A DNA stretch of 62,059 nucleotides, counting the filler, from Sphacelaria rigidula (lineage: Eukaryota), in NCBI GenBank assembly GCA_964200075.2. It is 8 parts of 8 records of this genome, joined end to end, with 100 filler letters (N's around TTAATTAATTAA, not from the genome) between each part and the next. Parts side by side here need not be neighbours in the genome. Positions count along the whole stretch, not along the records: positions 1 to 7,670 come from CAXNAA020013847.1; 7 more parts are not named here. One strand, 5' to 3'. A program made the position numbers and the translations under genes. Every line of letters begins with the position of its first letter. Positions within the stretch are counted from its first letter, which is position 1. Shown here piece after piece: positions 3,586 to 62,059 of the stretch. The notes below the pieces were generated by a model. That model ran no database searches, was not told the DNA's origin, and worked only from the letters and a program-made list of their open reading frames with translations.

Positions 3586-4327
3586 AAGCCAAAGGTAATC
3601 ACCATTTTTGATAGTGCTGACTGGTCAATATGCCAAATTGGTTGTACGTCAGATCCCTCTAGGGTTCCTACTTCGCGGCTTAGCCGTAGTTGACCATTTG
3701 GTTAATGACCTTTTCCACCATAGTAACACAAGCAAATGCGCCCCTTTTCGCTCTGTATGTAATCTTTGCGTCCCGTTTGGCCTCTCTTGTGCTGGAATTT
3801 TGAGACCTTTCGCATGCCAAACTTGACTTTTGGGCGGATCAAGGGTCTGCCGGGATGGAAACTCTGAACACGTAACCCCCGCCCTGATTGCCCGGAGGGT
3901 AATTCTTCAGAAAATGTCATGATTATCGTGATTCTTATTGAATACTGTTGAAGAAATCGATCGAGAAACATAGACGAGACCGAAAAGTCTGGTGGGCTTC
4001 GCGATGTTCATGTATATTTGCTTCTGCTCCCTACCCGCTCTGTCCCACTGACCTCGGATGCTGGCCACGCTCACACACATGTATGCACACGAGCGCACGG
4101 TAGCGGCAGTCTGTAGCCAAAGTAGCGGCCGCTCCAGGAGATACATCGGGACCTTCGCTAGTAGAGGGAGCTGCTGAAGATGAGCTGGGGGGCAGCGTGT
4201 CCGCGATCTCAGCGGTCTCCAGGCGAAGGAAGTGTGTACACAGCGGATGACCGCATTCGCCAACCCCTTGGTTGTAAACCACGGGATAACAGCCTGGGAG
4301 TCCCCCCCCTCCCCCCTCCTCCTTCCC

Positions 4328-4889
4328 GCCTGGTTCGGCGAGAACCCAGCGTGCCCCGTGCCCGGCTTTGTAGGGGCGGACCCCCGATGGGGTTGGCGTC
4401 GGTTGGCGATGACGCAGTAAAACACGTCACTCACTGCGTGAGCTAGGCATCCAGGTTACCGAGTTTTCTGTGCGCTTGGGCATTTTCGCGGTAACCATGA
4501 TGGTAGTCGAGCTAGATCATGTTGTGCGGCGTGGTTGAACCCTAACTCCGCACTAAGGGGATGATTGTACTACGTAGTGTTTGAATGGTGAGACACCCAT
4601 GAGGCAGTGCATAAGTCGTGGCTGTCCCCGTGAGTGGCGATACCAGAAAATGAAGCATGTCATTGAAGGCTCTCATCCAACTGCAAGATAATAAGTAGGC
4701 TTCGGGCCGAACAATCTTGGCAGGATGTAGCTCTGACCCTTCATGCGACTCGCTGAACACACCACGACGCTTCGCGCTTGGTGATTGAGTGCGAACCTGG
4801 TCCAGCGATAACTCGGCATGCTCCGTCCCGGCTTGTAGGGATGCGAGGTTAATGGTCATATGACTTTGGCATATATGATCATGAGTACA
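4328..4889 (+). mobile_element. Repeat family A, longest copy (~560-bp non-coding retroposon-like element in a poly(C) tract)
   Basis: Aligns by eye to copies at 30184, 38884, 54529, 59673 and 59991. It ends ...ATGAGTAC followed by (C)n. A ~45-bp internal direct repeat lies at ~4328-4375 and ~4796-4841. Confidence 0.85.
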
Positions 4890-7670
4890 CCCCCCCCCCC
4901 ACCCCCCCCCCCCCCCCCCCCAACCACCACAACCAGTTCCCCCCTCGCGCCTCCTTCTCTTTNNNNNNNNNNCACCCCCCCCCCCCCCCCCTCCCCCGCC
5001 CCCCTTCCTCAAAATTCAATTTTTCGACCTTGGGGCCTACGTGTTCAGAACGTTTCTACCGGCAGACCCTTGGGCGGATTCACAGTTCTCGAAACGAAAC
5101 GAAAAATCAGGACAGTTCCTCCGAAACTCAGAGAGAACTTGCTGCAGTACTCCGACTAAGAGTCGACATGGGCGTACGAAACGTCAAACATCATTAACGC
5201 TTACACAGCGAGCGTCGCCCCGGAGCAGCTTCGCAGACTGACAGTCCAGGTACGTCCGGGCATCTCGAGGTGGCGGAGGAGTGGTTTTTGACAGCGGGGT
5301 AGGGGCCTCTTGACAGAACAGCCGAAAGAAAGGTCACCAAGTCAGCCATGTATGTTTGGGAGTTTCCCATGGAAACTTGTGAGCCAGGAACGAGGCTTGG
5401 GAGAGGTGGAGTGATCTCTCTAACCAATCCTGGCTATCAAAACGATCACTTCGTTTCCCTACAGGTGGACTACGCCTTCGCTGTGTCTAGCCGTGTTTCT
5501 CGTGTTAGTGACGACAGTTCAACCATACATAGAAAACGTGGATACCAATAACGTGTTCTGTACTCTGCTCGTGGTCTGTACCGCCTGCCTGACCCGGTCA
5601 TGCATCGCCAGCATCGCTTCACATTGTCCGCAGCAGTGTTGTTGTGGAACAGTGAGCAGAGGCATGAGCAGCATGCAGCAGGTTGTGCTCAGTGGAGAGC
5701 GATGTCACCCTGACGATCTCTTGCCCTTGTATCCAGCGGAGACATACAGTACACATACTGACTCTGCACGCAATAGACTGCAGGGTCGGAACCGGACAGG
5801 GGCTCCCCGGGACTGTTCTCTACATGGATGTCCAACATCACTTATACATGCTCATGAAATGCTTTTCGTGTATCGAGAAAACTGCTGTTTTGAGCCCCAA
5901 ATACGGCCTAGTCATCTCAGTCCACGTGCGGGGCGGTCGCTGTCTAAGGGTTGGAGTGCTCTGGAGTCCTTCCCCAAACGTACATACGGCGAGTAAGTCT
6001 TCGCGAGACGGAACAAGTAACTAAGGAGTATTGTTAAGTATATTACCCAAGGAGCATTTTGTTTCGGGAAAATCGGATTTTTCCCCGACTTCTCCAGAAA
6101 ATAAATGCTGAAATGAAATTCGACTCTGGATATCGGTTGGGGCTATGGAGGCAGTGTTGGATATAGATATAATTCCTGCCGTAGTTGACGGACCTTCCCT
6201 CACATTTTTCGGAGAGAGTAGAAACTGCACGCGAGAACATGTTCGAGATTTCGCACAATAACAAGTCCCGGTAATACCGTTTCAAGAATCCGGTAGTACG
6301 TCCTGTAGATCACTTCCCGATCACTTCATGATACCCCTGGACTAGGCATTCCTCGCCCGCCATTTCAGTCGAGTGTTTGCCAGATAATTGAAAAAAATCC
6401 GACTCTTCCCAAGCTGCTGCAGAGGCAAATCCGCCGCTACAGTTTGGGAAAATCTGTTGTCAGCCTCAAGTTTATCCATTGCCTGACCTGGTCAGCTCTC
6501 TGACTGCAAGCGGTGGTCCATTTGTGAATCAGCATCTCTTCCACTTGGAAAAAACGAACATGATGCCGGTTCACACATGGACCACCTGCTCGGAGCCAAA
6601 GTGTTGAGGAAATTGCCATCACGTTTTCCAGATACCTCATGTCCCCGAAAAAGCTCGCAGACTTTGGGAAAAGGGTAGACCCGTTAATAATACCCCCAAG
6701 CCCTTTCTACGGGCGAATATCGATGCCAAACAACAGCCAACGTGGGCATGCACGCTCAAGAGAGGTAAAATTTAATAATACTTCACGACAAGACACAGCA
6801 GTCCATCGCTTGCGCGACGAAGGCTACTTCGCGATGTTGTTGTAGTGAGTAGGTGACGGCGCATGACACTCCCTGGCGCATCCGGCGTTCGCCGGCCGCG
6901 GGCTGATGTGTACACCCACGTTGTATACGGCTAACAAGTGAGGGGGTGGCATTCTATCGCGCTTGTTGAATACGAAGAGTTCTTCGACGACATGTTTTTA
7001 CACTCGGTGTTGTGCAACAACATATCCATCGCCATACCGCAGCAGTTGTCCATTGAAGTCTGGCGAAACCTGTCCGCCCGGAAAGGGATAACGGGCGCAA
7101 CAGAGGCGGGGCCGTATCTGCCATCACCTGTACAACAGAGCAGCATACCTATTTAGTGCACCAGATCGACAGCGGTAGGAAACCACGAGGGTGAGTGGAT
7201 CGGACTTCGGTATACCACGACATGGTACAGGCAACAAAGTCTCCGTGACGATGAGACCGCGTTTCGTGGCACCTAGGGAACGCTTTTCTAGTCTCCTGCA
7301 GCTGTGAACCGAACGATGGGCGGTTCAAATCCACCCCGAACAAATCTTCAAGCCTCTATTGGTGGAAACAACATGTCATGTCTGATTTGTCGACTCGACC
7401 ATCCGGCGACGTTACAGCGAGAGCCGACATGAAAAAGACGTCTCGTTTTTATCAGTAGCCCGTCGTCTTGTGGACGGATCTGTGACTTGCCGTTTAGCGT
7501 CGGATTGGCAAATAGATGCGGCATTGTAATCCCACGAGTAGGGCTTCAACGTTCGCTCGGCTCGCATTTGCTCTAATCTACACTCACCAGGAAGGGGAGT
7601 ACAGTCAAGAACAGCAATAATGGTCGACTGCCTGTGCTCTGTCCGTCGCCTTCGCTTTTGCGGACCCGAT

Positions 7671-7770
7671 NNNNNNNNNNNNNNNNNNNNNNNNNNNNNN
7701 NNNNNNNNNNNNNNTTAATTAATTAANNNNNNNNNNNNNNNNNNNNNNNNNNNNNNNNNNNNNNNNNNNN
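7671..7770. other. Artificial scaffold linker N44-TTAATTAATTAA-N44
   Basis: Identical 100-bp linker recurring every 7,770 bp; the 12-mer has stops in all six frames. Confidence 0.98.
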
Positions 7771-8130: not shown

Positions 8131-8210
8131 GTGTCTCAAACTCGAGGTTCCTGGTATATTTCACAGTAATTTTACGTTCGAATATACCGGGAACCTCGAG
8201 TTTGAGATAC
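8131..8210. repeat. 30-bp inverted repeat with 20-nt loop
   Basis: 8131-8160 versus 8181-8210, two mismatches. Confidence 0.9.
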
Positions 8211-12220: not shown

Positions 12221-12703
12221 TAGGCCGCTTCTTTTAGCCTGAAACAAAATCTGTCTGAGAACTGCCCTTATGAACCCTTCACCTCGGATTATTGGCGGAA
12301 TACGGGCCTTGGCGGATTTGTCCCCCTCCGAAAGATTTGCTGTATTGTTCACGAGGATTACAGCGCGCTTGTCCGATCTCTCGTACTCCCAGTTTTACTC
12401 TTGTCCGGATTCTGGAATTTTGCAGTCGCCGCGAAAATTGTCCACTTGTCGGGAAAAAAACGTACTTTTCCTCAACAACTCGAAGTTTTTTCACGTGACT
12501 GAAAAACTCCAAAATCCGGCCAAGAGTAAAACCGGGAGTACGAAATATCGAACAAGCGTGCTGGAATCCTCGTGAAAAATAGAGCAAATCTGTCCGAGGG
12601 GGCCAAATCCGCCAAGGCCCGTATTCCGCCAATAATCCGTGATGAAAGGCTCAAAAAGGCAGTTCTCAGACAGATTTTTTTTCAGGTTATAAGAAGCGGC
12701 CTA
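12221..12703. mobile_element. 483-bp foldback (fully palindromic) MITE
   Basis: TAGGCCGCTTCT...AGAAGCGGCCTA; the arms are complementary up to a centre at ~12462. This explains the mirror ORFs 12279-12632 and 12292-12498. Confidence 0.9.
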
Positions 12704-21894: not shown

Positions 21895-22127
21895 ATTTCG
21901 ACTTCGAGAGAGAGGGACTACGGAACCCCTCTCGTGATAAAACTACAGACTAGCACCGCAGAAGGAAGGTGGCGAACTAGTATAAACAAGAAAAAAAAAA
22001 AAGTACTATGCTGGCCTACCTCCTCTGCTGGCCCACCTCCTGTGTGAACCTCCCCGCTCGTGCGCCCACACATACTATATACCGAAAGGTCTAGACCGGC
22101 GTCCAGAATAGATCGGACGACAACACA
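21895..22127 (+). mobile_element. Repeat family B copy (diverged)
   Basis: Reverse complement of the 34932 and 44698 copies. Confidence 0.75.
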
Positions 22128-31080: not shown

Positions 31081-31929
31081 GGAAAGTTTTTCGTGCGGCG
31101 TATTCTAAATCAACTAGGTCTAGCGCCATTCACGGCAGGCGAAGCGGCGGACAAAGGATTCGTAGCAAGGCGCGCACAGCGCCGGGGATGCGTTCGGCTG
31201 GGTCCAGAATTCCATGATGACCTGACTTGTCGGAGGTTGATTTTGGATATGGCTACAGGGGTAGACGATGTGACTCGGTTAGAAGCACCTCTGCCGTGCT
31301 GTTTTCTGCAGCTCCCAAGCTTGAAAATCATTAGCGATGCCAGCGGGGATGCCATGGGAGGATACTGTTTGGAAACCGGCAAATGGTGGAGGATAGATTT
31401 CACTGCGGATGTACGTGCACGCCTCCGTACCCGTGTGCTTTCTAGAGACGATTAGTCGATGAACGTTTTCGAGCTGCTGGCTATGGTAGTGACGGCGTGG
31501 GTGTTGACTGTGCATGCTGGGGAACGACCGGAGTACCCCGGGCAGAGTATCTTGATGCGAGGATACAACATGAGCGCTATTCACTGGGTAAACAAATGTA
31601 GGGGGGCGGAAGAGCCACGGTCGGGGGCGCTCATGCGAATGATGGGCGTGTTGGAAATGCGAAACGGGTGGCGGTTCCGTGCGAAACATATCAAAGGGGT
31701 AGCAAATACTCGTGCCAATGGTATCTCGAGGTGGAACCGTGCTGACATTGCTCGTAACTTGCACTCTCTTCGGCCCGACATTTGTTGGCAGGAGCAGCGA
31801 CTCGGGCAAGAAGCTCTGGACCTTACTTTCGCGGTCTTGGCGTCGAGCTCGTCGGAAAGTCAGTTGCGGCTTCGTCTAAACGGAATTACGAGGCGGATTT
31901 CCGGTCTTGGTGTCTCTTTCGCGGGTTGA
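31081..31929 (+). pseudogene. DIRS-type RT C-terminus/RNase H, with in-frame stop
   Basis: One frame containing ISDASG, NVFELLA, MRGYN (expected D-N), HIKGVANTRANGISR (expected AD..SR). Stop at 31453-31455. Confidence 0.88.
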
Positions 31930-32954
31930 CAGGTCGGGATAAGATTTTCGGCGCCGACGCATCGGTCGAAGAGATGACTTGGGATTTGGTCGATTTTGCG
32001 GCGTGGTGTTTCGATTCCCAAGGGAGCGTAGCGAGTACGATATCGGGCAAGTTTGCGGCGGTGCAGTATTTTCATAGGATGGAGATACAAGTAGAAGTCG
32101 TCACCACGTCTCCGGTGTTGAAGTGTGCGTTAAAAGGGATTGCGAGATCGCATGCTGACACCGGCACGTGCCGTCGAACTCGCCTTCCGGTCACATGGCA
32201 GATGTTGTTGGACGGGGAATGTTTGATCCCATCGTGGGGCGTTGGGGGAAAGGTGCTTTGGCTTTGCTTGAGCTTGAGCTATTTTCTGCTCATACGGTCG
32301 GACGAGATGTTTGCGACTACGTCGGAGGTGGTACATTCGGTGCATTGTCTCACACTTAGGGACGTGGCGTTTTTTTCAGGGGATACCCAGCTGGAGTATT
32401 TGCAGTGGCGCCAGGCTGACAGGATAGAGATACATTTCCGGGGCCACAAAAGGGATCAGGAGAAGAGGGGCGAAGTAAGGGTCCGTACGCGAGAAGAAGT
32501 TCGTGGTCCGCATGCGGGGTACAGAGCAGACGGCGGTGCAGTTGCTCTGATGTTGGAGTTGTTGTCATGCTACGCGACATTGCCCGCAGACGCACCACTA
32601 TCCTCTTACCGCTATGGTCTGGGAGTCAAAGTATAGAAGTACAACGAGGCACTTCGAGCGTTGAGAGAGGTAGTCGAAAAGTTGGGTCGCGACCCGAGAG
32701 ACTTTGCTTGACACTCGTTGAGGATCGGAGGGACATCCACTATGGTAGCAGGGGGAGAAATATCAGATCGAGTTGCGCAGAGGGAAGGAAGGTGGAAGTC
32801 AGATGCATGCAAGGCGTACACTGTAAACAACATAGAAGACTCGCGACGAGTATCGCGCATTCTTGGAGATAAGAAAAGGGCAGTTAGTAGACAACCAGGG
32901 GAGGGAACTGTGTGGGGGAGTTACAAGAAGAGGTGGCGAATTCCGATGCAATGA
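31782..32954 (+). pseudogene. Tyrosine recombinase of the DIRS-order element, two in-frame stops
   Basis: Catalytic-type motifs LLIRSDE, HKRDQ, HSLRIGG, GRWKS and KAY lie in one frame. Stops at 32634-32636 and 32709-32711. Confidence 0.9.
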
Positions 32955-34931
32955 AAAACTCCACGACCTCGATATGGGTGAAGGAATGGTAGAGTACCAT
33001 TTGGGGACTTGGTCGTTTGAGATTTTCACGTGCATTAGGAGCGTTCATGTGTCCCCCTGGCTGTTCTAAGGGAGAGAGAGAGAGACAGTTTTCTTGAGCA
33101 GAGGCACGATAGTATATGGCAGAAGGGTTTAGAGACCGTGCCCTGCAAGCAGTCGTCTCTCTCTCTCTCTCTCTTGCCTTCGGGCCCGAAAATATGAATG
33201 AAAAAGGCAATTCGAAAGAAAAGCAATGAACCTTGGGTTTCCATCTGGTTTAGCACCCGAGGGCCATACAAGGGCCATTAAGGCATACTGTTGTCATATT
33301 CCAAAAAGCTCTGCGGCACTGTAAGGATGAATTCTCCGAACAGGAAGCTTCGGGCGCTACACGAGTTAAAACAATCAGCGTCCCCTACAAAAGTGGTGCG
33401 TAACTCATGTGAGGTTCGAAGCTCTGCTCAAATAGTATGTTGGCAGTATCCTGGCATACAATCACCGCTTACCCGTATATCATGCGACCGATGCAAGGCT
33501 CACCATTCTGTTCCGTTTTCTATGACTTTGTACACCCCGGTATCTTCTTCCATTAAGGCCCGGGTCCCGAAGGGCCTGTGGGGCAGTCGCAAGTCACGGC
33601 ACAATGCGGTCACGAGAAGGGAATACGAGGCAAGAGTATCTAATGACCTTGTCGTTACAACTGGCATGAACCACTCGACGACGGCATTGTCACGGAAAGT
33701 GTACGAGTAATAATAAGGACCAGAATACAGACAACGTGAGAGGCTTGCCCTGCCTACTTGACGACGAAAACCACTGCAAATCGTGAGGTCTGCGCTCGGC
33801 AATAAAGCATAATTGGTACACATGTGCACGATGTCGTGCTTCGAACTATGGCGCGATATACTGAACAATTCGCCAATAAGTCAAGTTCTGCAGTATAGAA
33901 TCCGATCGCCTTCAAGTCGCCACTCCGTGTGGGCAAAATTCTGTAGCAATACAACCATAATATACAGCATGATGACAATAAGCCCGATACACCCGCCGTG
34001 CGGTAATCCAGGAAACAGCCAGCTACTCAACTCCGCAGCATGAGAATATCACTTGCCTGAGAACGTTCGAAGTGTGATTCCAGCCCATCGCGAAGGCTTG
34101 CACTTCCCGTACTCCGCCGGATTGACTCGTTCTGTTGACGGGGTATTTCGGGTAGGACACTCTCGAGCAGGAATACCCAGCTGCTGGCACAGCCTGCAGC
34201 CCATGGCTCAGCAGTGCTGGAGGATATTGAACATGGCCGTTTCCACCGCCACCACCGGTAGGGGTTGGCCTTGCGGGCGCCGATTTTCCGATCGTCAACC
34301 GGGGGAGTATCGAACGCGGGTGCCGCCGTAGGTGCAACATTATTCAGATGCTTTCACCGCCGGAGCGTCCTACTGAGGCACGTGCAGAGATCACATTAGA
34401 GAGCAAGTTGATTATACTCAATTGGGCTGGTTTTGCCTGGCTTTGTGTGATATTTATCGCAGAGAATATGCAGGGGTAGGATTGGGACCAGCGGTCGTCA
34501 ATATTTAATCTCGATCGTACTTGGCTTTAGCTCGACAAGACCAAGTTCGATTCTTTCGTGGCGGGATGGTGTTCCCGTATGTATGGTGAGTGGTTATCAC
34601 CGACCATTTCCACTTTCCATTTGGTCGAGGCTGTCGACTGCACCTACCTATTTGTTTGCGGTCCAGGGGTCGACGGTGAACCCCAACCAAAACTACAAAT
34701 TGCTTGTTGTTTTTGTTCACGAAGAGGCGCAGGCTGCAAGCAGGGACCGTGCATCATGACCACCCGCCCGGTGGTTGCGTGAGGGTGGGTTCGTTGATAT
34801 TAAATACCACGATATTCATCATTCAATCAAGTGGGCAAGGTGGTTTATAACGAGTGCACGCAGGACCGTGCGTAGTTCAGGTAGTGCCGCAGTCTACTTC
34901 TAGGAAAATTGACTGTGGGTGTTGCCAACTT

Positions 34932-35158
34932 GTGTATGTGTGTGCGTGTGTGTTGTCGTCCCATCTATTCTCGGCGCCGGTCGACACCTTTCGGTATATG
35001 TGGGTGCACCAGCCGGGGTGACACAGGAGGAGGGCCAACACAGGAACTTTTTCGTTCTGCCTGTTTTAGTTTTCCCCCTTTCTTCTGCGGTGCTTGCCTT
35101 TCTTTTTGATCGCGAGACGGGTGCAGCGGTCCCTTTCCCTCGTCGACCATCAAGTCGT
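34932..35158 (-). mobile_element. Repeat family B copy
   Basis: (TG)n-TTGTCGTCCCATCTATTCT..CCAGCCGGGGTGACACAGGAGGA..CATCAAGTCG, colinear with 44698-44929. Confidence 0.85.
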
Positions 35159-35364: not shown

Positions 35365-35663
35365 AACAACATTTTCGTGAAATTGAGACTTAAAGGTATG
35401 ATTGAGAGTGAAAAGCGGTCAATTAGTAAATGAGCCAATTCAGTTCTGAAATGCACTTCCACCAGGCACAATATTCTCTCTGTAGTAGCTTGCCACTGGG
35501 GCCCTCGATACCCTTGAGTAGGATATCAACGTGTAGCTGTAAGCACGTGGCAGTGATGAGACGAAGAAAAGCACACACAGAATGAAAAATTGGCCAAGTT
35601 CAAGCGAACGATCAAAGCCACTCTCAATCCGCACCCAACTCTCAATCTCACGAAAACCCTGTT
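35365..35663. mobile_element. 299-bp MITE, AACA...TGTT termini, 4-bp TSD (TACC)
   Basis: Imperfect TIR of ~40 bp; TACC at 35361-35364 and 35664-35667; an empty-site sequence is present at 3135-3159. Confidence 0.88.
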
Positions 35664-38883: not shown

Positions 38884-38981
38884 GTACTCATGATGTTGAA
38901 TACCGTAGTCATGAGACCATTGACCTCGCATCCCTACGAAGCTGGGACGGAGCACGCCGGGTTCTCGCCGGACCAGGCTCG
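38884..38981 (-). mobile_element. Repeat family A, 3'-terminal ~100 bp only
   Basis: Reverse complement reads GCCTGGTCCGGCGAGAACCCGGCGTGCTCCGTCCC...ATGAGTACCC; G-tracts on both sides on the + strand. Confidence 0.85.
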
Positions 38982-40619: not shown

Positions 40620-40685
40620 TGCTCCGTCTCGAAAGGCACGCACAATGAATCGTCAAACGGCTAAGGCAAGCAACAAATGAGTAAC
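40620..40685 (+). mobile_element. Repeat family C, 3'-terminal fragment
   Basis: (C)7-TGCTCCGTCTCGAAAGG...CTAAGGCAAGCAACAAATGAGTAA-(C)n. Confidence 0.75.
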
Positions 40686-43600: not shown

Positions 43601-44697
43601 CAGCGATGCACTGATGTGCAGTTTGCGTGTCCACCCGAAGGGCTACCTCCAGTCGTCTGTGCATGTATGCTGTGCCATCGTGTCGGAGTTGCACCTGCGC
43701 TGTGCAGCACAGACGTATATGGGTTGTGAGGCTGTCGTGTACTGCACACGTACACCTTCGCCTGCCTGCGCATGTGCGTGTATCGTGTGCTGTCCGTACT
43801 ATACGAGCTGTGTGCTGCACCTTCCCCGCGTATTGCTTATTTTTTACGCTTGGGCCCCCCGGTAAACGTACTGTTAAGCAGTACGATCACACTACATTAC
43901 AGTCGTAGTAGGACAGGGATATCATGCCAACCACCAGTGCTTGACTTGCGCAGCGAAGGCATTGCCACACTGTTCAGCGTCCCCATGATGTTCCTGCAAC
44001 GCCCAGTCTTCATTTGCCTACTGATTATCATCGTAATGTAGGTCACGATTATGGCTGAGATAATATACTTCATACTCAGCGAGTAACTATGGCAAAACAT
44101 CCGCTGCAACGCACAAACTGGTGACCAAAGGATAGCACACTGTTGACTCCACTGGATGCGTGTGGCAGGGTCGTCGAAGAATGATGGTTGACGCAGAGCT
44201 CGGTTTGTGAGATGGACCTCCATTTCCATTTCACAGTACAGCACGTTCAGTACGGGTTCGGGGACAGTACAGCACACAAGAGCTTGACAAGACAAATTGG
44301 ATTTGCTCAAAAGTCATACAAAAGAAAAAGAGAGCAAGTTTGATGAAACCTCAATCCATGAGAAGTGACAAACTACCGGTTTGGCCTACATGGTGTCAGA
44401 CCGTCGAGTACCTACTGCAAGTGATGGGGACTCTTGAAGAGAAGAGTTGGACGCGCGGTGGCTATGTGCTGCGCGTCGAGAAATGTACACAACAGATGGA
44501 CAGTAGGCAGATGTTTTGGTATGAAAAATATCAACAGTGAGGCTTCAACCTTGCAACCAATCAGCACACCGGAAAAAGCCACGTCATCCAGAGTAACGTG
44601 AGCAACGTTCTGGGAATTTTTGCTCATATTACATTATACTAAGCTGTCAAACCCATTACACTACAAAGCGTTACAACATACATGTTTCCATCGAAAT

Positions 44698-45650
44698 TGT
44701 GTGTGTGTGTGCGTGTGTGTGTTTTCGTCCCATCTATTCTGGACGCCGGTCTACACCCTTGGGTATATGTAGGCGCACCAGCCGGGGTCACACTGGAGGA
44801 AGGCCAGCACAGGAGTTTTTTCTTTTCTTAGTTGTTTCAGCTCTCCACCTTCCTTCTGCGGTGCTTGCCTTTATTTTTCTATCCCGAGAGGGGTTCAGCA
44901 ATCCCTTTCCCTCGTGGATCATCAAGTCGAATTATTAGTTATCGTTGTTCTCGACTTTTTTTTTTCTCTTCTGTTTTGCTGTTCTGCACGCACCAGTTGT
45001 CCTTCGGTTCTCTAGCTTTTTTTCTTCAAGCGTTCATCCTCCCGTATCATCGCCTTTCGGCGCGTTTGCTTTGGAGTTTCACCACGGTTTGTCTTGTCTT
45101 CCGCTCGTGGTCGTGTCCTCTTCCTCCTTCTATGTCTCGAGCTGCTTTCTCTCTCACGGTTTTGTCACCCATACTTAAACCAAGAGTTATCAGTGACGTA
45201 CATTCGCTTTGCGCAGGCGCCCCTCATTGTAATTAAACGCTACCATTTTACCGTCTCCTTATTCAGACTGCCGTTTCCTCACTAGCCTCCGTACCAGACC
45301 TGTATGTTTACGAGTTTTCCTCGGCATTCTCATCCCCCGCGACTACAGTGTTCACGAGCACACGTCAACACCTGTTTTGGTGTATCCATGTTGTCCTCTG
45401 CCTTCTACTTTGGTCCGAGTACGCTCGCGGGTCCTTGTCACAATCCCACCACAGTTCACTTTTTGTGTCATCAAAATGACATCCCTTACTTTACGAGTAA
45501 TTAACACCTGCTGTGAATGCGCCTTCACTTCGTCGAACCCCCCTTCTCCCGCCCCCTCTCTCCGAACCTGCCCCAACAGGTGTAGGGCCAGGCCTCACCC
45601 GAGTAGCTACTCAATCGATTGCGGTGTAACCCACCATTCACTTTGAGTTT
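44698..45650 (-). mobile_element. Repeat family B, longest copy: non-LTR-type element with (CA)n 3' tail
   Basis: The 3'-terminal ~230 bp are shared with copies at 21895, 34932, 47105 and 54391, which all end GGA(C/T)GA(C/A)A..(CA)n. The extension to ~45650 is inferred from a single copy. Confidence 0.65.
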
Positions 45651-46383: not shown

Positions 46384-46520
46384 CAAGGACGGGGGTAAGA
46401 GATGTAAAATGTCTTTGTGTCATGTATGGAAGAAACGAAATGAGCTATGGAAGAAACGTAATGAGCGCCGGAATGTTGGAGGTGTCTCTATTAGGAGTAG
46501 GAACGGTGCTCCGTCTCGAA
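46384..46520 (+). mobile_element. Repeat family C (~170-200 bp, shares 3' end with family A), cut by scaffold end
   Basis: Starts after a (C)n tract; AATGAGCGCC..GGAGGTGTCTCTATTAGGAGTAGGAACGGTGCTCCGTCTCGAA also occurs at 53326 and 59425. Confidence 0.8.
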
Positions 46521-47104: not shown

Positions 47105-47381
47105 CTAAAACAGAATGAGAAAAGAAACAAACTCCTGTGTCGACCTCAAACTCTGGATATTAGATCACATTGTCAAAAAGTGTACTGCGTACAGTATAAA
47201 ACCTACTGCCCTTTGCCATGGACGCAATAGTCGATATTGTACTCAGTACACTTTTTGACAACGTCATCTATTGTCCAGGGTGCGGTCGATCTTCCCCCTG
47301 TGTGGCCCCGGATGATGCGCCCACATACACCGAAAGGTGTAGACTGACGTCCAGAATGGATGGGATGACACCACACACACA
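47105..47381 (+). mobile_element. Repeat family B copy interrupted by a small MITE
   Basis: ACTCCTGTG..[MITE]..CCTGTGTGGCCCCGG..CCAGAATGGATGGGATGACA-(CA)n. Confidence 0.7.
47149..47282. mobile_element. ~134-bp MITE with ~48-bp TIR (CACCCTGGAC... terminus)
   Basis: CTCTGGATATTAGATCACATTGTCAAAAAGTGTACTG pairs with CAGTACACTTTTTGACAACGTCATCTATTGTCCAGGGTG. Related ends occur near 1900-1950, 23840-23868 and 50135-50208. Confidence 0.78.
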
Positions 47382-52972: not shown

Positions 52973-53040
52973 GGTGCTCCCTCTCGAAAGGGATGCGTGG
53001 TCAATGGTCAAACGACTAAGGCAAGCAACAAATGAGTACG
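52973..53040 (+). mobile_element. Repeat family C, 3'-terminal fragment
   Basis: GGTGCTCCCTCTCGAAAGGGATGCGTGGTCAATGGTCAAACGACTAAGGCAAGCAACAAATGAGTACG. Confidence 0.8.
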
Positions 53041-53325
53041 CTCCCTTGTTTTATGCCCCACTTTGAGCTTTTTTCAGCGAAAATATGCGTGTTTTATGCG
53101 CTCCCTTCGCGTCCTTATTGTGGCGTTGTGGCAGTATCCCCTCACGAGGCGCGCCTTCTAGCATAAGGAGAAGACGACAATTTGGGTATTCGAAGTTCCA
53201 AAAAAGGTTTTTGATCGAAAAATAGGACTTTTCTCCGATCATTGAATTTGAATGCCACCCCAAACCACCTATCGAAACAACGTGTACGCAGTACGTACAC
53301 TCATGATACATGATGCAGCAGTGGG

Positions 53326-53438
53326 TGGAAGAAACGTAATGAGCGCCAGAATGTTGGAGATGTCTCTATTAGGAGTAGNNNNNNNNNNGGATACGTGGTC
53401 AATGGTCGAACGACTAAGGCAAGCAACAAATGAGTACG
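53326..53438 (+). mobile_element. Repeat family C copy (10-N gap inside)
   Basis: Same sequence as the other C copies; ends ATGAGTACG-(C)11. Confidence 0.8.
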
Positions 53439-53462: not shown

Positions 53463-53800
53463 TCAGTCGACATTTGAAATCATGTCGAACTTCCGACTCC
53501 GATTGTACTTGAGCATGACCGCGGCTTCGATCCGGTTACCTAACGCCCTCTCCTGGCGGGAATCCAAACACCCCCTCAAAACGGAAAATACTCGCTCCAT
53601 AAACGCAGGCGATGGCTGAATAAGTACGATATCCATCGCCACGAGATACCAAGTGGGAAGCCTTGTTTTGTTTTCGTCCCAGAACGACAGCAAACCGTAA
53701 TTTGAGTGCGCGCCCGAGGCTGCGACCAAAAATTCAGCCTTCTCGGACAAAAGGCCCGCCATGACCTCAGGGCTCACAGGGGAAAACAGCAAGCTGGCGG
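53463..53800 (-). mobile_element. hAT transposase C-terminal dimerisation-domain fragment
   Basis: LLSFWDENKTRLPTWYLVAMDIVLIQPSPAFMERVFSVLR...RIEAAVMLKYN matches the hAT W..W/P.S...ERxFS signature. 54087-54290 (LFFEKLEESFEISKSSKCAR) may be an upstream part of the same gene. Confidence 0.85.
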
Positions 53801-54290
53801 ACCTCCTCCCGGGTGTAGCCTGTACGCTGCTTAATATACACGAAGTATATGAGCTAACGTTGTAGGTTGTACGCTGCACAATGTACAATGGGCCCCATGG
53901 CACAACTATTGTACAAAATCTTGATTAATTTTTTCAATCTACCATAGTATCAAACATATAAAACACAAACGGAAACGTTTTTCGGATCAGACCCTCAACC
54001 ATGGCAGTTTGGAGTATTGATTGTTGAAGCCTGTCTGGTGACGAGCAACGAGTGACGAGTCACGCCATAGGCCGCAGGGAGCACTTTCAAGCAGCTGATA
54101 CACTGGCTGCAGGAGGCGCATGGAAGAATATCGCAATTTTACGCGCGTTTCGCGCACATTTTGAGCTTTTCGAAATTTCGAAGCTCTCTTCAAGCTTTTC
54201 GAAAAAAAGCTTATTTAACCCTTGGACCGCGAGGTTAGTCTTCTGTTGAATCGGCATCAATTTCAAGTGAAACAACGTACGCATGATCCA

Positions 54291-54390: not shown

Positions 54391-54464
54391 CCCCGGCTGA
54401 TGCGCCCACATATCCCGGAAAGGGTAGACTGGTGCCCAGAATAAATGGGACGACAACACACACA
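54391..54464 (+). mobile_element. Repeat family B 3' end at scaffold start
   Basis: CCCCGGCTGATGCGCCCACATAT..CCAGAATAAATGGGACGACAACACACACA. Confidence 0.8.
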
Positions 54465-54528
54465 TCAAATCCTATACATTCCCCCGTCCTTCCGCCGCCA
54501 AAACTCATCACACAACACGGTACACGTT

Positions 54529-54928
54529 GCGGTAATCATGATGGCGGTTGAGGTAGATCATGTTGTGCGGGGTGGGAGAACCTCAATTCCGAGCAAAGGG
54601 GATGATCGTACCACGTAGTTTTTACATGGTGAGCCCCCCATGAAGCAATGTAGAACCTGTGGCTGTCTCTGGAAGTGACGAAGCCAGAAATTGAAGCAAC
54701 TCATTGAAGACTGCCATCCATATTCTAGGTACTCAGTAGGCTTCGGGCCGAACAATCTTGGCAGGATACAGCTCACCCTTCGTGCCACTCGCCGAGCACA
54801 TCACGGCGCTTCGCCCTAGGTGAAAGATTGCGAGCCTGGTCCGGCAAAAACCCGGCATGCTGCGTCCCGGCTCTGTAGGGATGCGAGGTCAATGGCCATG
54901 TGACTATGGTATGCAAGATCGTGAGTAC
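54529..54928 (+). mobile_element. Repeat family A, 5'-truncated copy
   Basis: Colinear with 4488-4889; ends GTGAGTAC-(C)n. Confidence 0.85.
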
Positions 54929-55001
54929 CCCTCCTCCCCCGCCCCCCCCCCGTCCCCAACACATGCGATCCAGCAGATTCCGTTGCTGAAATCACCTACT
55001 T

Positions 55002-55864
55002 CTCTACGAGCTGGACCAGCCTAAAAACGGATTTAAGCTCTAAGAGCAATATCTCATCACCGGAAACGAATTGGGCCGTGATCCGCATATCGTATTCATC
55101 GTCTAATCAAGGGGAAGGTGCCCATCTGCTCAAAACTCTGGGCCATTTTTTTCTCGTTGATCAAACCCCATGTATAGTACTTCCTGTACCTAGCGGAGAT
55201 AGCGCCAATACTAAAATCTCAATGAAACTCCCGATCGATGCATTCAGCGGATGGCGACGAATTTTGGTGTGGAGAACCATAAAAGAGTGACGAATACAAA
55301 AAAAATAGCCTTAACTTTTTTTTTCCCCATAGAGGTTAGGGCGTTCTCGTGAAGAAATAGTTTTCACCATAGTAGAACGCAACCAGTGAAAAAGATTGAA
55401 ACAAATCAACCTGACCCATTCTTTTTTCTTGTCAATTATGCCTTAGAGAGCGTCCACACAAAATTTCAATACACGAAAACCAAACACGGGCCGGTGAGTG
55501 GCCTGCGAGATACTGTTCCGAATTTCTACCGACCCGGTTTTGTTTAGGTCCATGCTCCCGACAATATTCATTAGAGTTGGACCCTGGAATTTGGTATGGA
55601 CAATGAATAGGGCATGAAGAAAAAAATTTCATCGGCACCCTTGCGGCACCAGGAATTTTTTTTCATGAGTTATGGGCAATAATCATTTTTCAGGTTTCAG
55701 TAAAATGCCTTCAACTCACGAAAAAAAAAATCTGGTGCCGATGTAATTTTTTTTCATGCCCTATTCATTGTCCATACCAAATTTCAGGGTTCAACTCCAA
55801 ATACTGGCGGGAGCATGAGCCTGCAAACTTCAAATCCGCCTCTAGGCTGGCCCAGCTCGTAGTG
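55002..55864. mobile_element. Non-autonomous CACTA/EnSpm element
   Basis: The right end reads CACTACGAGCTGGGCCAGCCTAGAGGCGGATTT on the minus strand and the left end reads CTCTACGAGCTGGACCAGCCTAAAAACGGATTT. The TSD is not preserved. Confidence 0.75.
55547..55821. repeat. 275-bp palindrome or nested foldback MITE inside the CACTA element
   Basis: CATGCTCCCG..ATTTGGTATGGACAATGAATAGGGCATGAA pairs with TTCATGCCCTATTCATTGTCCATACCAAAT..CGGGAGCATG. Confidence 0.82.
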
Positions 55865-58800: not shown

Positions 58801-59424
58801 AGATGGAAGTGTTTTTGCTCTCGGCAAAGCCTTCTCCGCTTGCCTGTCCGCTCTTGTCTTGCTAACGTAGCTTCGCATCTGTGTAAAGGTTATGGCAGAG
58901 ATAGACACAGCGCAAGCTGCGTGCGGTGGAGAGCGATGGCACCCTGATTGTTTTGAACTCTACAATCTAGGCCCTGATCCAAAAGCTCTGTGCTGTACGG
59001 CACAGCAGTAGAGTACAGGGTGGTTGAGTACAGAGCAGCCGAGGCGATGTGACATGAAGCGCAACATCAAAACATACTCGAAGTGTGCCAGCAGCGCGTG
59101 TTACAAATGATACTAAAACCGTGGAAGCGTAGACAAGAGGGAACATTGTCTTCTTCCGCCATAGCATCACTGGTAGCCATCTTGCGCCACTTGCAAAGGC
59201 ATGGATATCATGATTTTTTACAGCGAATATGTACACTTCACGTGGCTCGAAACCGGCCATGGATTCTCCGGGACTAACTTCTATGTTGTATGCAAATAAA
59301 TGCTCAATGTTTAGTTGAAAACGTAAAAAGACCTGCTATGTGACGAGAACAAACAATAATATTGAGTAGTACCAAACCCAAACCACGGGTGACACCAGAA
59401 TATCTGGACGGGGGGGGGGGGAGA

Positions 59425-59589
59425 CGTGCTCATTTGTTGCTGGCCTTGGTGATTTGACGTTGACCACGCATCCCGTTCGAGACGCAGCACCGTTTTTACT
59501 CCTAGTAGAGACACCTCGAATATTTGGGCGCTCACTACTTTTAAGCATACACTACACAAAACTATTTACATATCTTGTCCCCTTCCTGA
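59425..59589 (-). mobile_element. Repeat family C, near full-length diverged copy
   Basis: Reverse complement aligns with 46384-46520 plus the common 3' end; G12 tract at its 3' side. Confidence 0.75.
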
Positions 59590-59672
59590 TCCACTGTCTG
59601 TGGCCACCATCTATCTCCTACTATAGCATCGTTTTCTCCCTACTGTCAAATGTATGTGGGGGGGGAGGGGAT

Positions 59673-59973
59673 GTACTCACGATTTTGCATGCCGTATTCA
59701 TAAACCATTGACCTCCCATACCCACGAAGCCGGCACGAAGGACGCCGGGATTACGACGGACCAGACTCGCAACCAATCACCAAGCGCGAAGCACCGCCAG
59801 GTGCTCGTCAAGTCGCTTGAAAAGTGAGCTGCATCCAGCGAAGATTGTTCAGCTCGAAGCGTACCGATTATCTTGCATTTGGATGACAGCCTTCGATGAG
59901 TCGATTGATTTTCTGGTATCGCCACTTCAGAGACAACCACGGGTTCCACACTGCTTCATGAGTGTCTCACCAT
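59673..59973 (-). mobile_element. Repeat family A, 5'-truncated copy
   Basis: Reverse complement is colinear with ~4585-4889; G-tracts on both sides. Confidence 0.8.
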
Positions 59974-59990
59974 CTAGGAGGGGCGGGGGG

Positions 59991-60808
59991 TATATTCATG
60001 ATCATGCATGCCGTAGCCATAAGATCATTGACCTCGCATCCCTACAAAGCCGGGACGGAGTACGCCGGGTTTTTGCCAGACAAGGCTCGCATTCAATCAC
60101 CAAGCGTAAAGCGCCGTGGTGTGTTCGGCGAGTCGCATGAAGGGCAAGCTACATCCTTCTAAGATTATTCGACCCAAAGCCTACCGATTATCTTGCATTT
60201 GGATGGCAACCTACAATGAGTTGCTTCATTTTCTGGTCATTTTTTGGTGTCGCCACTTCCAGAGACAGCCACGGCTTTTACACTGCCTTATGGGTGTCTC
60301 ACCATTTCAACACTACGTAGAACAATGTTTTCGTGAGATTGACGGTAAAGGATACGATTGAGAGTGGGAAATGGCCAATCAATGAGCAGATAATTTCAAT
60401 TCTGAAATGCCCCTCCACGAGGCCCGATACGTTTTCTGTAGTAACTTGCCACTTGTCCCTTAATATCCCCGAGTAGGATATCGACGTGTAGCTGTCAGCA
60501 CACGCCAGTGTTACAGGCAAATAAGTTCACACACAGAATAGAAAATTGGTCGAGTTAAAGCGAATGATGAAACCCTTTCTCAATCAACGCTCTACTCTCA
60601 GTACCACGAAAACGTTGTTGTAGTACGATCACCTCATTTGCGCGGAGTTGAGGTTCTCCACCGTGCACAATATGATCTAGCTCGACCACCATTACGGTTA
60701 CCGCAAAAAAATCGCAAGACAAGCCCCCCCCGGCAACCTGGTTGCCTACTGTAGCTTACGCAGGGAGTGGCGTATTTTACAGCCGTTGCCAACCGACGCC
60801 AAACCTCG
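59991..60808 (-). mobile_element. Repeat family A copy interrupted by the 299-bp MITE
   Basis: Removing 60321-60623 restores colinearity with ~4388-4889; G-tracts on both sides. Confidence 0.82.
60321..60619. mobile_element. 299-bp MITE, second copy, 4-bp TSD (GTAG)
   Basis: Colinear with 35365-35663 and identical in length; GTAG at 60317-60320 and 60620-60623; the empty site is seen in the family A copy at ~4565-4580. Confidence 0.88.
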
Positions 60809-62059
60809 AAAGGGTAACCTAGGGGGAGGGGGGGGAGGGGGTATTTGTTACTTTCCTTAGTCATTTGACCGTTGACCGTAAAACCACGGGGGGGGGTGGG
60901 GGGCGCATCCATTCACAGGATTGAACACTACGTGAGGAATGAACCAATTGTAATTTCTGGGGTCCCATGGACCAGCCGGTACCATATTCCCGGAAAAGTT
61001 GGAAAAGTTTAACGTTTCCTCCATTTCAAGTTGAAGAGTTTTGGGTGTCAAGGGCATTTCTTGACGAATCAGACACCCTGTCCGGAAGACTATCGTGGAT
61101 TCGAACAGGACAAAAATGACGATGGCAGATGCCGTCAGTGTGAGAGTGAGAACGAGCACCATAAATTGGGCCAAGCAACAAAACACCGTATGGGGAATGC
61201 GGCATGAGTTTTTGGTCGAACATCATCCTTTCCCAACTTCAACCGTCCACGAGGTATGTTCCATGGTCCCATATTTTGTTCCGAATCCGCCCTCGAACGG
61301 TTCTGTGTAACCTACCCCCGTAGAACGGAAACGTGCATGACTGCAACAGGTGGTGTCCACCATCAGCAAAGAAAGGACGGAAATCTACATAAATAAAAAC
61401 ATCACCCGCACATGCGCTCATGATAATTTCATCAATCGTATTTTCTTGGGCCTGAGTGTTTTTGTCACGCGACTAGATGGATCTGCGGCACAGCGGGGAC
61501 TGTCCGATTTGGCACAGTACAGTCAGCACACTGTTTCATGAGCATACAAAGGATCATGCAGTTGGCCGACAAAGGCAACCGTGTTACTAGACAGCCTAGA
61601 ATATCGATCAAGATCATGTTTTACTGATATTCAACCCGTTATCTATTGAACCATACCCTTTGCCTGGTACTTACCCTGTCGGCACTCCAGAGCAGCGGCC
61701 GACTGTGCGTGGTGGGCTGTGCTGTTCGCCGCTGAGTATCTGTTGTCTGCGCTCATTTCGATTTCCTGCGTTTTCATACCCGCGGTCGAAAAGACGGATC
61801 ATCTCCGAGGACAAAAAGGGTAATAGATGGATGAAAAAAATCTCTCGTTTTGATGCTTTTGTAGTGGATGAGGGCAGTAAATGTCTCACTCGCGTTGGGT
61901 AAATCTCATAAAACACCCCACACCAAGGGGCCCTACAGACTGGAAAACGGTTTATACCCCCCCCCCCCCCCCCCCCGGGGGGGGGGGAGAATGGGGAAAA
62001 CCAAAAAAGGGCGCCCCAAAACCTTTTTTCCCCTTTTTTTTTCTCAAACCCGGGAATTT

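What the first reader, a model, noticed from the sequence alone, without database searches (positions are those of the whole stretch)
4328..4889. Abundant non-coding retroposon system that appears to target poly(C)/poly(G) tracts
Seen: six family A copies (4328, 30184, 38884, 54529, 59673, 59991) and five family C copies (40620, 46384, 52973, 53326, 59425) lie on five unrelated scaffolds. Every copy with a visible 3' end stops at about RTGAGTAC followed by a C-rich run. The 5' ends fall at different internal points, and most begin just after a C-run whatever the truncation point. There are no TIRs, no poly(A) and no ORF. Established: a fixed 3' end with variable 5' truncation is the signature of target-primed reverse transcription. 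Inference: an unseen autonomous RT element inserts these RNAs into (C)n homopolymers. From memory, (C)n- and (CA)n-associated insertion was reported for Chlamys-type Penelope-like elements of green algae, and a very abundant short non-coding repeat (Sower) is known in Ectocarpus. I cannot verify identity with either.
Basis: partly seen in the sequence, partly recalled or inferred. Interest (0 to 1): 0.72.

Follow-up and report, generated by a model that had tools for sequence, protein, structure and literature searches.

The report
Brown-algal LINE and passenger targeting C-runs
Two abundant repeats sit in runs of C in this likely brown-algal genome: one is the cut-off tail end of a reverse-transcriptase-encoding LINE retrotransposon, the other a 560-base non-coding passenger with a similar tail that the LINE likely copies; a system of the same build is already catalogued in Ectocarpus, so it is real but ordinary.

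Summary
The repeats are real, with fixed 3' ends, variable 5' ends and C-run flanks. The autonomous partner is in the genome: a single-ORF AP-endonuclease/RT LINE of about 1,360 codons whose stop codon lies a few bases from its 3' end. Family C is therefore not non-coding; its copies are 5'-truncated LINE ends. Family A is a 560-nt non-coding element sharing the LINE's last ~52 nt at 77%. Target-site duplications starting in the C-run are detectable (25 of 142 above the null's 99th percentile). Paralogous empty sites carry the C-run (3 of 3 usable cases, plus the 4328 copy). The LINE clusters with Ectocarpus proteins. A 2025 Ectocarpus library (PMC12477816, supplement) lists RTE-X LINEs with (C)n ends and C-rich TSDs, plus a ~600-bp non-autonomous partner. 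It is not a Chlamys Penelope element. Sequence identity with RTEX-N1/Sower could not be tested. Verdict: new member of a known kind. Small extras are a 5'-truncation hot spot at 63-68 nt and a 3' motif shared with distant relatives that have AT-rich tails.

The parts
4328..4889 (+). Family A, full-length non-autonomous element (561 nt); 47-nt direct repeat at 4328-4375 and 4796-4840; inserted in the C-run of another dispersed repeat
   Evidence: empty paralogues of the host repeat in L036, L039, L043
30184..30706 (+). Family A, full-length 5' end, 10-N gap inside; flanks share CCCCCCTGC(C/T)TGG, a likely target-site duplication
   Evidence: TSD read by eye from the sequence
38884..38981 (-). 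Family A, 98-nt 5'-truncated copy starting at the second copy of the 47-nt repeat
54527..54928 (+). Family A, 402-nt 5'-truncated copy; no upstream C-run
59673..59976 (-). Family A, about 305-nt 5'-truncated copy; third member of a head-to-tail train
59993..60805 (-). Family A, copy from consensus position 62 to the end, split by a 300-bp insertion at 60321-60619
60844..60885 (-).
   Evidence: tblastn E 3e-4 with the last 60 aa of P0002; sequence; not found by the nhmmer profile
40620..40683 (+). Family C = LINE 3' end, 65 nt
46386..46520 (+). Family C = LINE 3' region with a 21-nt internal duplication, cut by the scaffold end
52973..53039 (+). Family C = LINE 3' end, 67 nt; encodes 19 of the last 20 residues of the intact homologue P0002, then the stop
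53322..53437 (+). Family C = LINE 3' end, about 124 nt, with a 10-N gap
59426..59655 (-). Family C = LINE 3' end, about 230 nt; last member of the train

Best explanation
Family C is the 5'-truncated 3' end of a single-ORF LINE encoding an AP-endonuclease and a reverse transcriptase, and family A is a 560-nt non-coding element with a similar 3' tail that this LINE likely copies in trans; both sit in pre-existing C-runs with short target-site duplications, most likely through target-primed reverse transcription. Shown: the LINE in the genome, its ORF running to the terminus, the shared tail, fixed 3' and variable 5' ends, TSDs, and C-runs at empty sites. Inferred: the LINE protein binds a structured signal in the last ~65 nt. 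The endonuclease nicks the G-rich strand at the G-run, and the freed G end pairs with a few C at the RNA's 3' end to prime cDNA, a mirror image of L1's T-run and poly(A). The second nick about 6-14 nt past the C-run gives a TSD made of the C-run plus unique bases. Each insertion leaves a new C-run, which would explain the head-to-tail trains. The family is most likely RTE-X, of the kind named RTEX-1/2 and RTEX-N1 in Ectocarpus.
For: Of 20 non-LTR RT loci, all 3 of one RT family end in the family C sequence on the same strand. Among the 30 best matches to that RT, 11 show the C end 1.0-1.36 kb downstream (10 of the 22 with enough flank, plus one). One more has it inverted, the rest are cut or interrupted, and none runs into an A-type end. 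L047 covers residues 1-1360 of P0002 in 10 pieces at 52-83% identity; P0002 carries PF03372, PF14529 and PF00078. Open-frame relatives L193 and L195 and a second lineage L198 end TGAGTACG plus a C-run right at the stop codon. A and the LINE share 52 nt at 77%. TSD test: 25 of 142 copies above the shuffled-flank 99th percentile (about 1.4 expected), 17 of the 25 starting with CC. Empty paralogous sites with a 7-8 C run: L028, L069, L079 and the 4328 copy. In L079 the 3' run is longer than the target's (12 against 7), which suggests added C. 20 of 146 incidental copies start within 45 nt of another copy's 3' end on the same strand, against 4 near an opposite-strand end. Tree: 100/99 clade with Ectocarpus proteins, apart from the genome's other LINEs, which end in (CAA)n or (CAAT)n where resolved. 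PMC12477816 supplement rows match this anatomy.
Against: No reference RTE-X sequence was available, so the clade name rests on matching anatomy and elimination. 107 of 142 copies score no better than the null's 95th percentile for a TSD (old copies, pure C TSDs are down-weighted). 12 of 62 copies lack a run of 4 or more C upstream. Two loci of another RT family (L034, L036) also had a C end 1.7-1.8 kb downstream, though beyond their own (CAAT)n ends. The endonuclease region of the genome's own copy scores only E 0.022 with PF03372, under the cut-off. No intact ORF was among the 150 scored matches (longest open frame 627 aa). Folding of the 3' end is weak (z from -2.1 to +0.3). Mobilisation of A by this LINE, the RNA's C-tail and the nick sites were not observed.
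Confidence: 0.9

Rival explanations
1. Family A is moved by a Chlamys-type Penelope-like element (GIY-YIG endonuclease), as the first reader half-suggested.
For: Chlamys elements favour (C)n and (CA)n targets and have non-autonomous partners (PMC8557442 passages); Chlamys families exist in Ectocarpus. A has a repeat at its 5' end and occurs in tandem trains.
Against: A's tail matches an AP-endonuclease LINE. The 5' repeat lacks the terminal 48 nt, so it is not a pseudo-LTR. Clear TSDs exist. Ectocarpus Chlamys-1 is listed with an (A)n end. Pfam GIY-YIG gave one weak hit genome-wide, though that profile is a poor test for Penelope endonucleases.
Confidence: 0.03
2. A is mobilised by a second LINE lineage with an A-like tail that is extinct, unassembled or unsampled here, not by the family C LINE.
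For: A differs from C in both loops and the last 20 nt. The second brown-algal lineage L198 shares GGCATGCA with A and is followed by an A-like fragment. Ectocarpus has two autonomous families. A copies look older (median 12% against 8% from consensus).
Against: None of the 30 best RT matches runs into an A-type end. A and C share target pattern and form mixed trains. This changes the partner, not the mechanism.
Confidence: 0.2
3. The C-runs are wholly element-made, or arose after insertion by slippage; there is no C-run targeting.
For: Every copy carries a 3' C-run, and some C appears to be added by the element (L079).
Against: 5' C-runs occur at all truncation points, TSDs include unique bases beyond the run, and empty paralogues hold the run.
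Confidence: 0.03
4. The copies are solo LTRs or fragments of DIRS, Helitron or TIR elements.
For: A has a direct repeat at its start and near its end.
Against: One-sided truncation (41 of 46 reach the 3' end, 5 of 46 the 5' end), TSDs of variable length, and identity of C with a non-LTR ORF end.
Confidence: 0.01

Closest known systems
RTEX-1_Ec32 and RTEX-2_Ec32 (RTE-X LINEs, Ectocarpus; PMC12477816 supplement 3)
   Same: Single EN-RT ORF, (C)n 3' end, C-rich TSD, about 5.5 kb, thousands of copies. This genome's RT groups with two Ectocarpus protein clusters.
   Different: Copies here are older and broken; no intact ORF among 150 scored. Direct sequence comparison was not possible (FASTA supplement unreadable).
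RTEX-N1_Ec32 (604-607 bp, over 6,000 copies, 2.48 Mb); probably the repeat earlier called Sower (1.2% of the genome, about 2.5 Mb; PMC3145265 passage). The equation is my inference from size and rank.
   Same: Non-coding, about 600 bp, most abundant family, ~60-bp 3' end about 80% like the LINE, C-rich TSD, unknown 5' head, found in tandem. Family A: 560 nt, about 1.3% of the sampled DNA.
   Different: A is 45 nt shorter and shows no match to the LINE 5' region, whereas N1 is noted as weakly like RTEX-2's 5' end. The 47-nt internal repeat is not mentioned in the rows I read. Orthology untested.
Stringent-type SINE/LINE pairs (PMC3747384 passages)
   Same: Shared 3' tail with a predicted stem-loop; trans-mobilisation.
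   Different: The shared tail lies inside the LINE's coding sequence; no Pol III head found; tail and target are C-runs. Green-algal RTEX tails listed there are (CA)n, (CAA)n, (CCAT)n and similar.
Mammalian L1/Alu (own knowledge)
   Same: Homopolymer priming at an endonuclease nick, 5' truncation, TSDs of 10-20 bp, reuse of old tails as targets.
   Different: C/G instead of A/T; sequence-specific tail; one ORF.
Chlamys Penelope-like elements (PMC8557442 passages)
   Same: Bias for (C)n targets, 5' truncation, tandem insertions.
   Different: GIY-YIG endonuclease, pseudo-LTRs, TSDs often not discernible; none fits here.

Membership tests
Non-LTR retrotransposon (LINE), family C | Non-LTR RT domain upstream of the repeat's 3' end on the same strand | tested here: met
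Non-LTR retrotransposon (LINE), family C | Fixed 3' end, 5' truncation, variable-length TSD | tested here: met
   29 of 33 reach the 3' end; TSDs
RTE-X clade | N-terminal AP-endonuclease fused to RT in one ORF | tested here: met
   P0002 domains; L047 collinear over residues 1-1360; own copy only E 0.022 with PF03372
RTE-X clade | RT groups with reference RTE-X sequences | not testable with these tools
   No named RTE-X reference available; the tree shows only a clade with Ectocarpus proteins, apart from the (CAA)n/(CAAT)n-tailed families
Ectocarpus RTEX-1/2 kind | (C)n 3' end and C-rich TSD | tested here: met
   definition
RTEX-N1_Ec32 / Sower | About 600 bp, non-coding, ~60-bp tail shared with the LINE, C-rich TSD | tested here: met
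   560 nt, no ORF, 52 nt at 77%
RTEX-N1_Ec32 / Sower | Sequence identity over the element body | not testable with these tools
   The paper's FASTA supplements cannot be read
SINE in the strict sense | Pol III head derived from tRNA, 5S or 7SL RNA | tested here: not met
   No Rfam match on any copy at E up to 5; ARAGORN found nothing in the consensus. A decayed head cannot be excluded.
Chlamys Penelope-like element | Pseudo-LTR formed by a partial tandem that includes the 3' terminus | tested here: not met
   The 5' repeat of A (1-47) stops 48 nt short of the terminus
Chlamys Penelope-like element | GIY-YIG endonuclease and Penelope-type RT in the autonomous partner | tested here: not met
   Partner carries AP-endonuclease and non-LTR RT

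The most novel reading that the evidence does not exclude
Brown-algal RTE-X is a mirror-image L1 that switched its priming homopolymer to C/G while keeping an ancient RNA recognition signal written into the last ~20 codons of its ORF. The core TGCG(A/T)GG(T/C)CAATGG survives in a distant lineage (about 37% protein identity) that ends in AT-rich repeats (L191, L192). The protein's grip on this signal would cause the sharp abort of reverse transcription at 63-68 nt (22 of 51 LINE copies). In family A the 47-nt repeat would act as a 5'-end-defining signal, since both the 560-nt and the ~95-nt forms start at it. This would be a natural tail/target swap within one clade, and a candidate C-run-directed insertion enzyme.
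Probability: 0.3. Interest if true: 0.5.

Novelty: new member of a known kind. Interest (0 to 1): 0.22.

Why it matters
For annotation: these two families supply roughly 100 copies per Mb in the sample (about 14,000 A and 10,000 C hits if extrapolated to 244 Mb), and family C would be mis-filed as non-coding. The (C)n end and C-rich TSD are already recorded for Ectocarpus as short notes in a supplementary table. This work adds direct support that the C-run pre-exists at the target, which I did not see in the passages read. Homopolymer priming on G-runs would be an unusual variant of target-primed reverse transcription, and open-frame relatives (L193, L195, P0002) make it testable in vitro. It does not open a new class of element.

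Tried and rejected
Rfam scan of the window: no match on any copy. tRNA head: none. HDV-like or hammerhead ribozyme: inspected by eye only; a 7-bp stem closes the first 127 nt of A but the other core elements are absent; motifs recalled, not run. A GG rule at 5' junctions or beyond the C-run (symmetric nicking): rejected. Junction GG was not enriched (A 19 of 61 against 19.3 expected; C 13 of 50 against 20.7; one of six windows gave p 0.03), and flank GG was 29 of 86 against 40% background. The 65-nt C copies as a separate mini-family: rejected; same consensus and divergence as long copies (21 short at 8.4%, 11 long at 8.3%). Homology of A's head to the LINE 5' region: none. Empty orthologous sites from other samples: four runs laid on 54391-62059 gave no resolvable empty site, the joints table being swamped by repeats. 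Expression: no RNA holder listed. In one search, 19 of 22 flagged copies were dropped by eye as self-matches, tandem trains or low-complexity matches. Whole-element consensus fold was uninformative. Paper searches: 'non-LTR retrotransposon'+'poly C tail'+'target' 0 papers; 'brown alga'+'SINE'+'non-autonomous'+'LINE' 1; 'RTEX'+'target site duplication'+'Chlamydomonas' 2; the library lacks most subscription journals and Repbase Reports. Earlier scan findings: none.

Full report
Setting. The window is eight short scaffolds joined by N spacers, from a 244-Mb assembly in 27,214 contigs. All named homologues of the RT found below are from Ectocarpus, so the host is likely a brown alga; I did not try to identify it further.

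Observation. All 11 copies exist. To avoid selection I took the first 10 kb of 80 evenly spaced larger contigs (799,855 bases) and scanned them with profiles of family A and of the LINE's last 1.8 kb. 41 of 46 A hits and 29 of 33 C hits reach within 4 nt of the 3' end; 5 of 46 A hits start at the 5' end. Of the five A exceptions, three are cut by a gap or contig end. Among 62 copies with both flanks, runs of 5 or more C occur upstream in 43 and downstream in 43 (background 2.7% and 1.2%); G-runs in none. Terminal motifs match 3,104 and 4,942 places, controls 0. Extrapolated, A has about 14,000 hits and 1.3% of the DNA; contig starts and large contigs may bias this.

The autonomous partner. From 150 scored RVT_1 matches I fetched 20 of the roughly 32 with the long, non-LTR span. 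All three members of one RT family have the family C sequence 1.0-1.5 kb downstream on the same strand, and the reading frame runs into it, ending at the TGA of AAATGAGTAC just before the C-run. Two loci of another family also had a C end downstream, but beyond their own (CAAT)n ends. Of the 30 best matches to this RT, 11 show the C end in place; one has it inverted, the others are cut or interrupted, and none ends in an A-type tail. The intact database homologue P0002 (1,360 aa, 73% identical, AP-endonuclease and RT domains) aligns to locus L047 from residue 1 to 1360, and its last 20 residues match window 52973-53032 at 19 of 20. Family C is thus 5'-truncated LINE, not a non-coding family. 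Metagenome contigs L193 and L195 (open frames of 1,253 and 1,426 codons; L195 is 80-83% identical in DNA to this genome's copies) and L198 (second lineage) all end TGAGTACG plus a C-run. No intact copy was seen in this assembly among 150 scored matches.

Family A. The consensus from 28 full-length copies is 560 nt, with no long ORF, no tRNA and no Rfam match. Its last 52 nt are 77% identical to the LINE end; nothing else matches the LINE. Positions 1-47 repeat at 466-512, so the full-length form and a common ~95-nt form begin with the same sequence. Contigs from three other coded organisms hold the A body abundantly at 85% or more, so the family is not confined to this species.

Target. TSDs score above the 99th percentile of shuffled flank pairs in 25 of 142 copies (852 null pairs; the set includes copies chosen as search anchors); 17 of the 25 start with CC and the scored lengths are 9-20 bp. 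Most copies give no clear TSD, as expected at 8-12% divergence with C matches down-weighted. Insertions into other repeats supply empty paralogues. Of 150 copies tested, 22 were flagged and 3 were genuine by eye (L028 with 4 empty loci, L069 with 24, L079 with 5); each target has a run of 7-8 C, partly mutated in some paralogues. The finding's own copy at 4328 sits in the same C-run of the same host repeat as L028 and L097, which is empty in L036, L039 and L043. In L079 the 3' run is longer than the target's, so the element likely adds a few C. Old tails are reused: 20 of 146 incidental copies start within 45 nt of a same-strand 3' end, 4 near an opposite-strand end. The window has a four-member train at 60885-59426.

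Mechanism. Shown: LINE, shared tail, polarity, TSDs, C-runs at empty sites. From established knowledge of AP-endonuclease LINEs: target-primed reverse transcription and trans-mobilisation through a shared tail (PMC3747384 passages). Inferred: nick at the G-run, priming by 3' C, second nick about 6-14 nt beyond the run. A six-pair hairpin in the tail is kept in C, A and L198, with loops of 4, 9 and 4 nt, two one-sided changes and one double change (L198 read by eye). That is three lineages only, and folding z-scores are weak.

Truncation hot spots. 22 of 51 incidental LINE copies are 63-68 nt long; A clusters at 94-101 (8 of 56), 301-308 (6) and 497-510 (6). The short LINE copies are not a separate family, and a GG junction rule failed. 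The cause is unexplained; the 65-nt point lies at the 5' edge of the predicted tail structure.

Comparison. The RT forms a 100/99 clade with two protein clusters containing Ectocarpus sequences, apart from this genome's other LINEs, which end in (CAA)n or (CAAT)n where resolved. PMC12477816 (passages and rows of supplements 3 and 4) lists RTEX-1 and RTEX-2 with a single EN-RT ORF, (C)n ends and C-rich TSDs, and RTEX-N1 (604-607 bp, 6,116 copies, 60-bp tail 83% like the LINEs, unknown head, tandem copies). Its RTE families end in (CAA)n, CRE in (CA)n and Chlamys-1 in (A)n. Its FASTA supplements could not be read, so identity with A is untested. Sower is given as 1.2% of the Ectocarpus genome, about 2.5 Mb (PMC3145265 passage), matching RTEX-N1's 2.48 Mb; that they are one family is my inference. 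RTEX-1 is also named in Saccharina (PMC4421812 passage). The Chlamys (C)n bias is real (PMC8557442 passages) but its defining features are not met. PMC11203168 (passages) places RTE and RTEX together in one superfamily.

Verdict. A real, well-supported LINE plus non-autonomous partner that insert in C-runs; it works like, and is very probably a member of, the Ectocarpus RTE-X system. New member of a known kind; interest 0.22. The boldest reading not excluded is a clade-wide RNA signal inside the ORF end with a tail/target switch to C in brown algae, resting on two distant loci with the same core motif and AT-rich ends.

Noticed in passing
window 4328-4375 and 4796-4840: 47-nt direct repeat at the very start of family A and again 48 nt before its end; the ~95-nt truncated forms start at the second copy. 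Function unexplained.
   Followed up: partly
L191:3095-3160; L192:2088-2150: Distant relatives (about 37% protein identity) keep the nucleotide motif TGCGAGG(T/C)CAATGG near the ORF end but finish in (AT)n or (ATTT)n instead of a C-run.
   Followed up: partly
L198:2636-2805: A second-lineage LINE end is followed directly, after its C-run, by a diverged family A-like fragment.
   Followed up: partly
L128:4248-4314: Chimeric 65-70-nt copy: LINE-type hairpin joined at the shared GGGATG to an A-type tail; possible template switch.
   Followed up: no
L058:2199-3590: LINE copy whose 3' part is inverted relative to its RT part, as in twin priming.
   Followed up: no
window 60321-60619 and 35365-35663: 300-bp repeat (74% alike) that splits a family A copy, with about 10 nt of A sequence duplicated on both sides.
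   Followed up: no
window 4001-5075: Unclassified dispersed repeat whose internal C-run was hit independently three times (window, L028, L097).
   Followed up: partly
window 31279-32872: Overlapping minus-strand frames that look by eye like RNase H and tyrosine-recombinase remnants of a DIRS/Ngaro element; no Pfam match.
   Followed up: no
window 53463-53924 (-): hAT transposase dimerisation domain (PF05699, E 3e-6).
   Followed up: no
window 12221-12703, 55551-55817, 47140-47289, 8131-8210: Self-complementary stretches (72-84%), likely MITE-type elements.
   Followed up: no
window 21905-22127, 34927-35157, 44694-44929, 47293-47381, 54391-54464: Another dispersed repeat family of about 230 bp.
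   Followed up: no
L047:5038-5445: 400-bp element with long inverted ends inserted in the LINE ORF.
   Followed up: no
L033, L034, L036, L038, L040, L041, L043, L045, L046, L048: Three further LINE families with (CAA)n or (CAAT)n tails; (CAAT)n is not among the LINE rows of the Ectocarpus table I read.
   Followed up: partly
window 7671-7770 and six similar places: Artificial scaffold spacers (44 N, a 12-nt stop linker, 44 N).
   Followed up: yes
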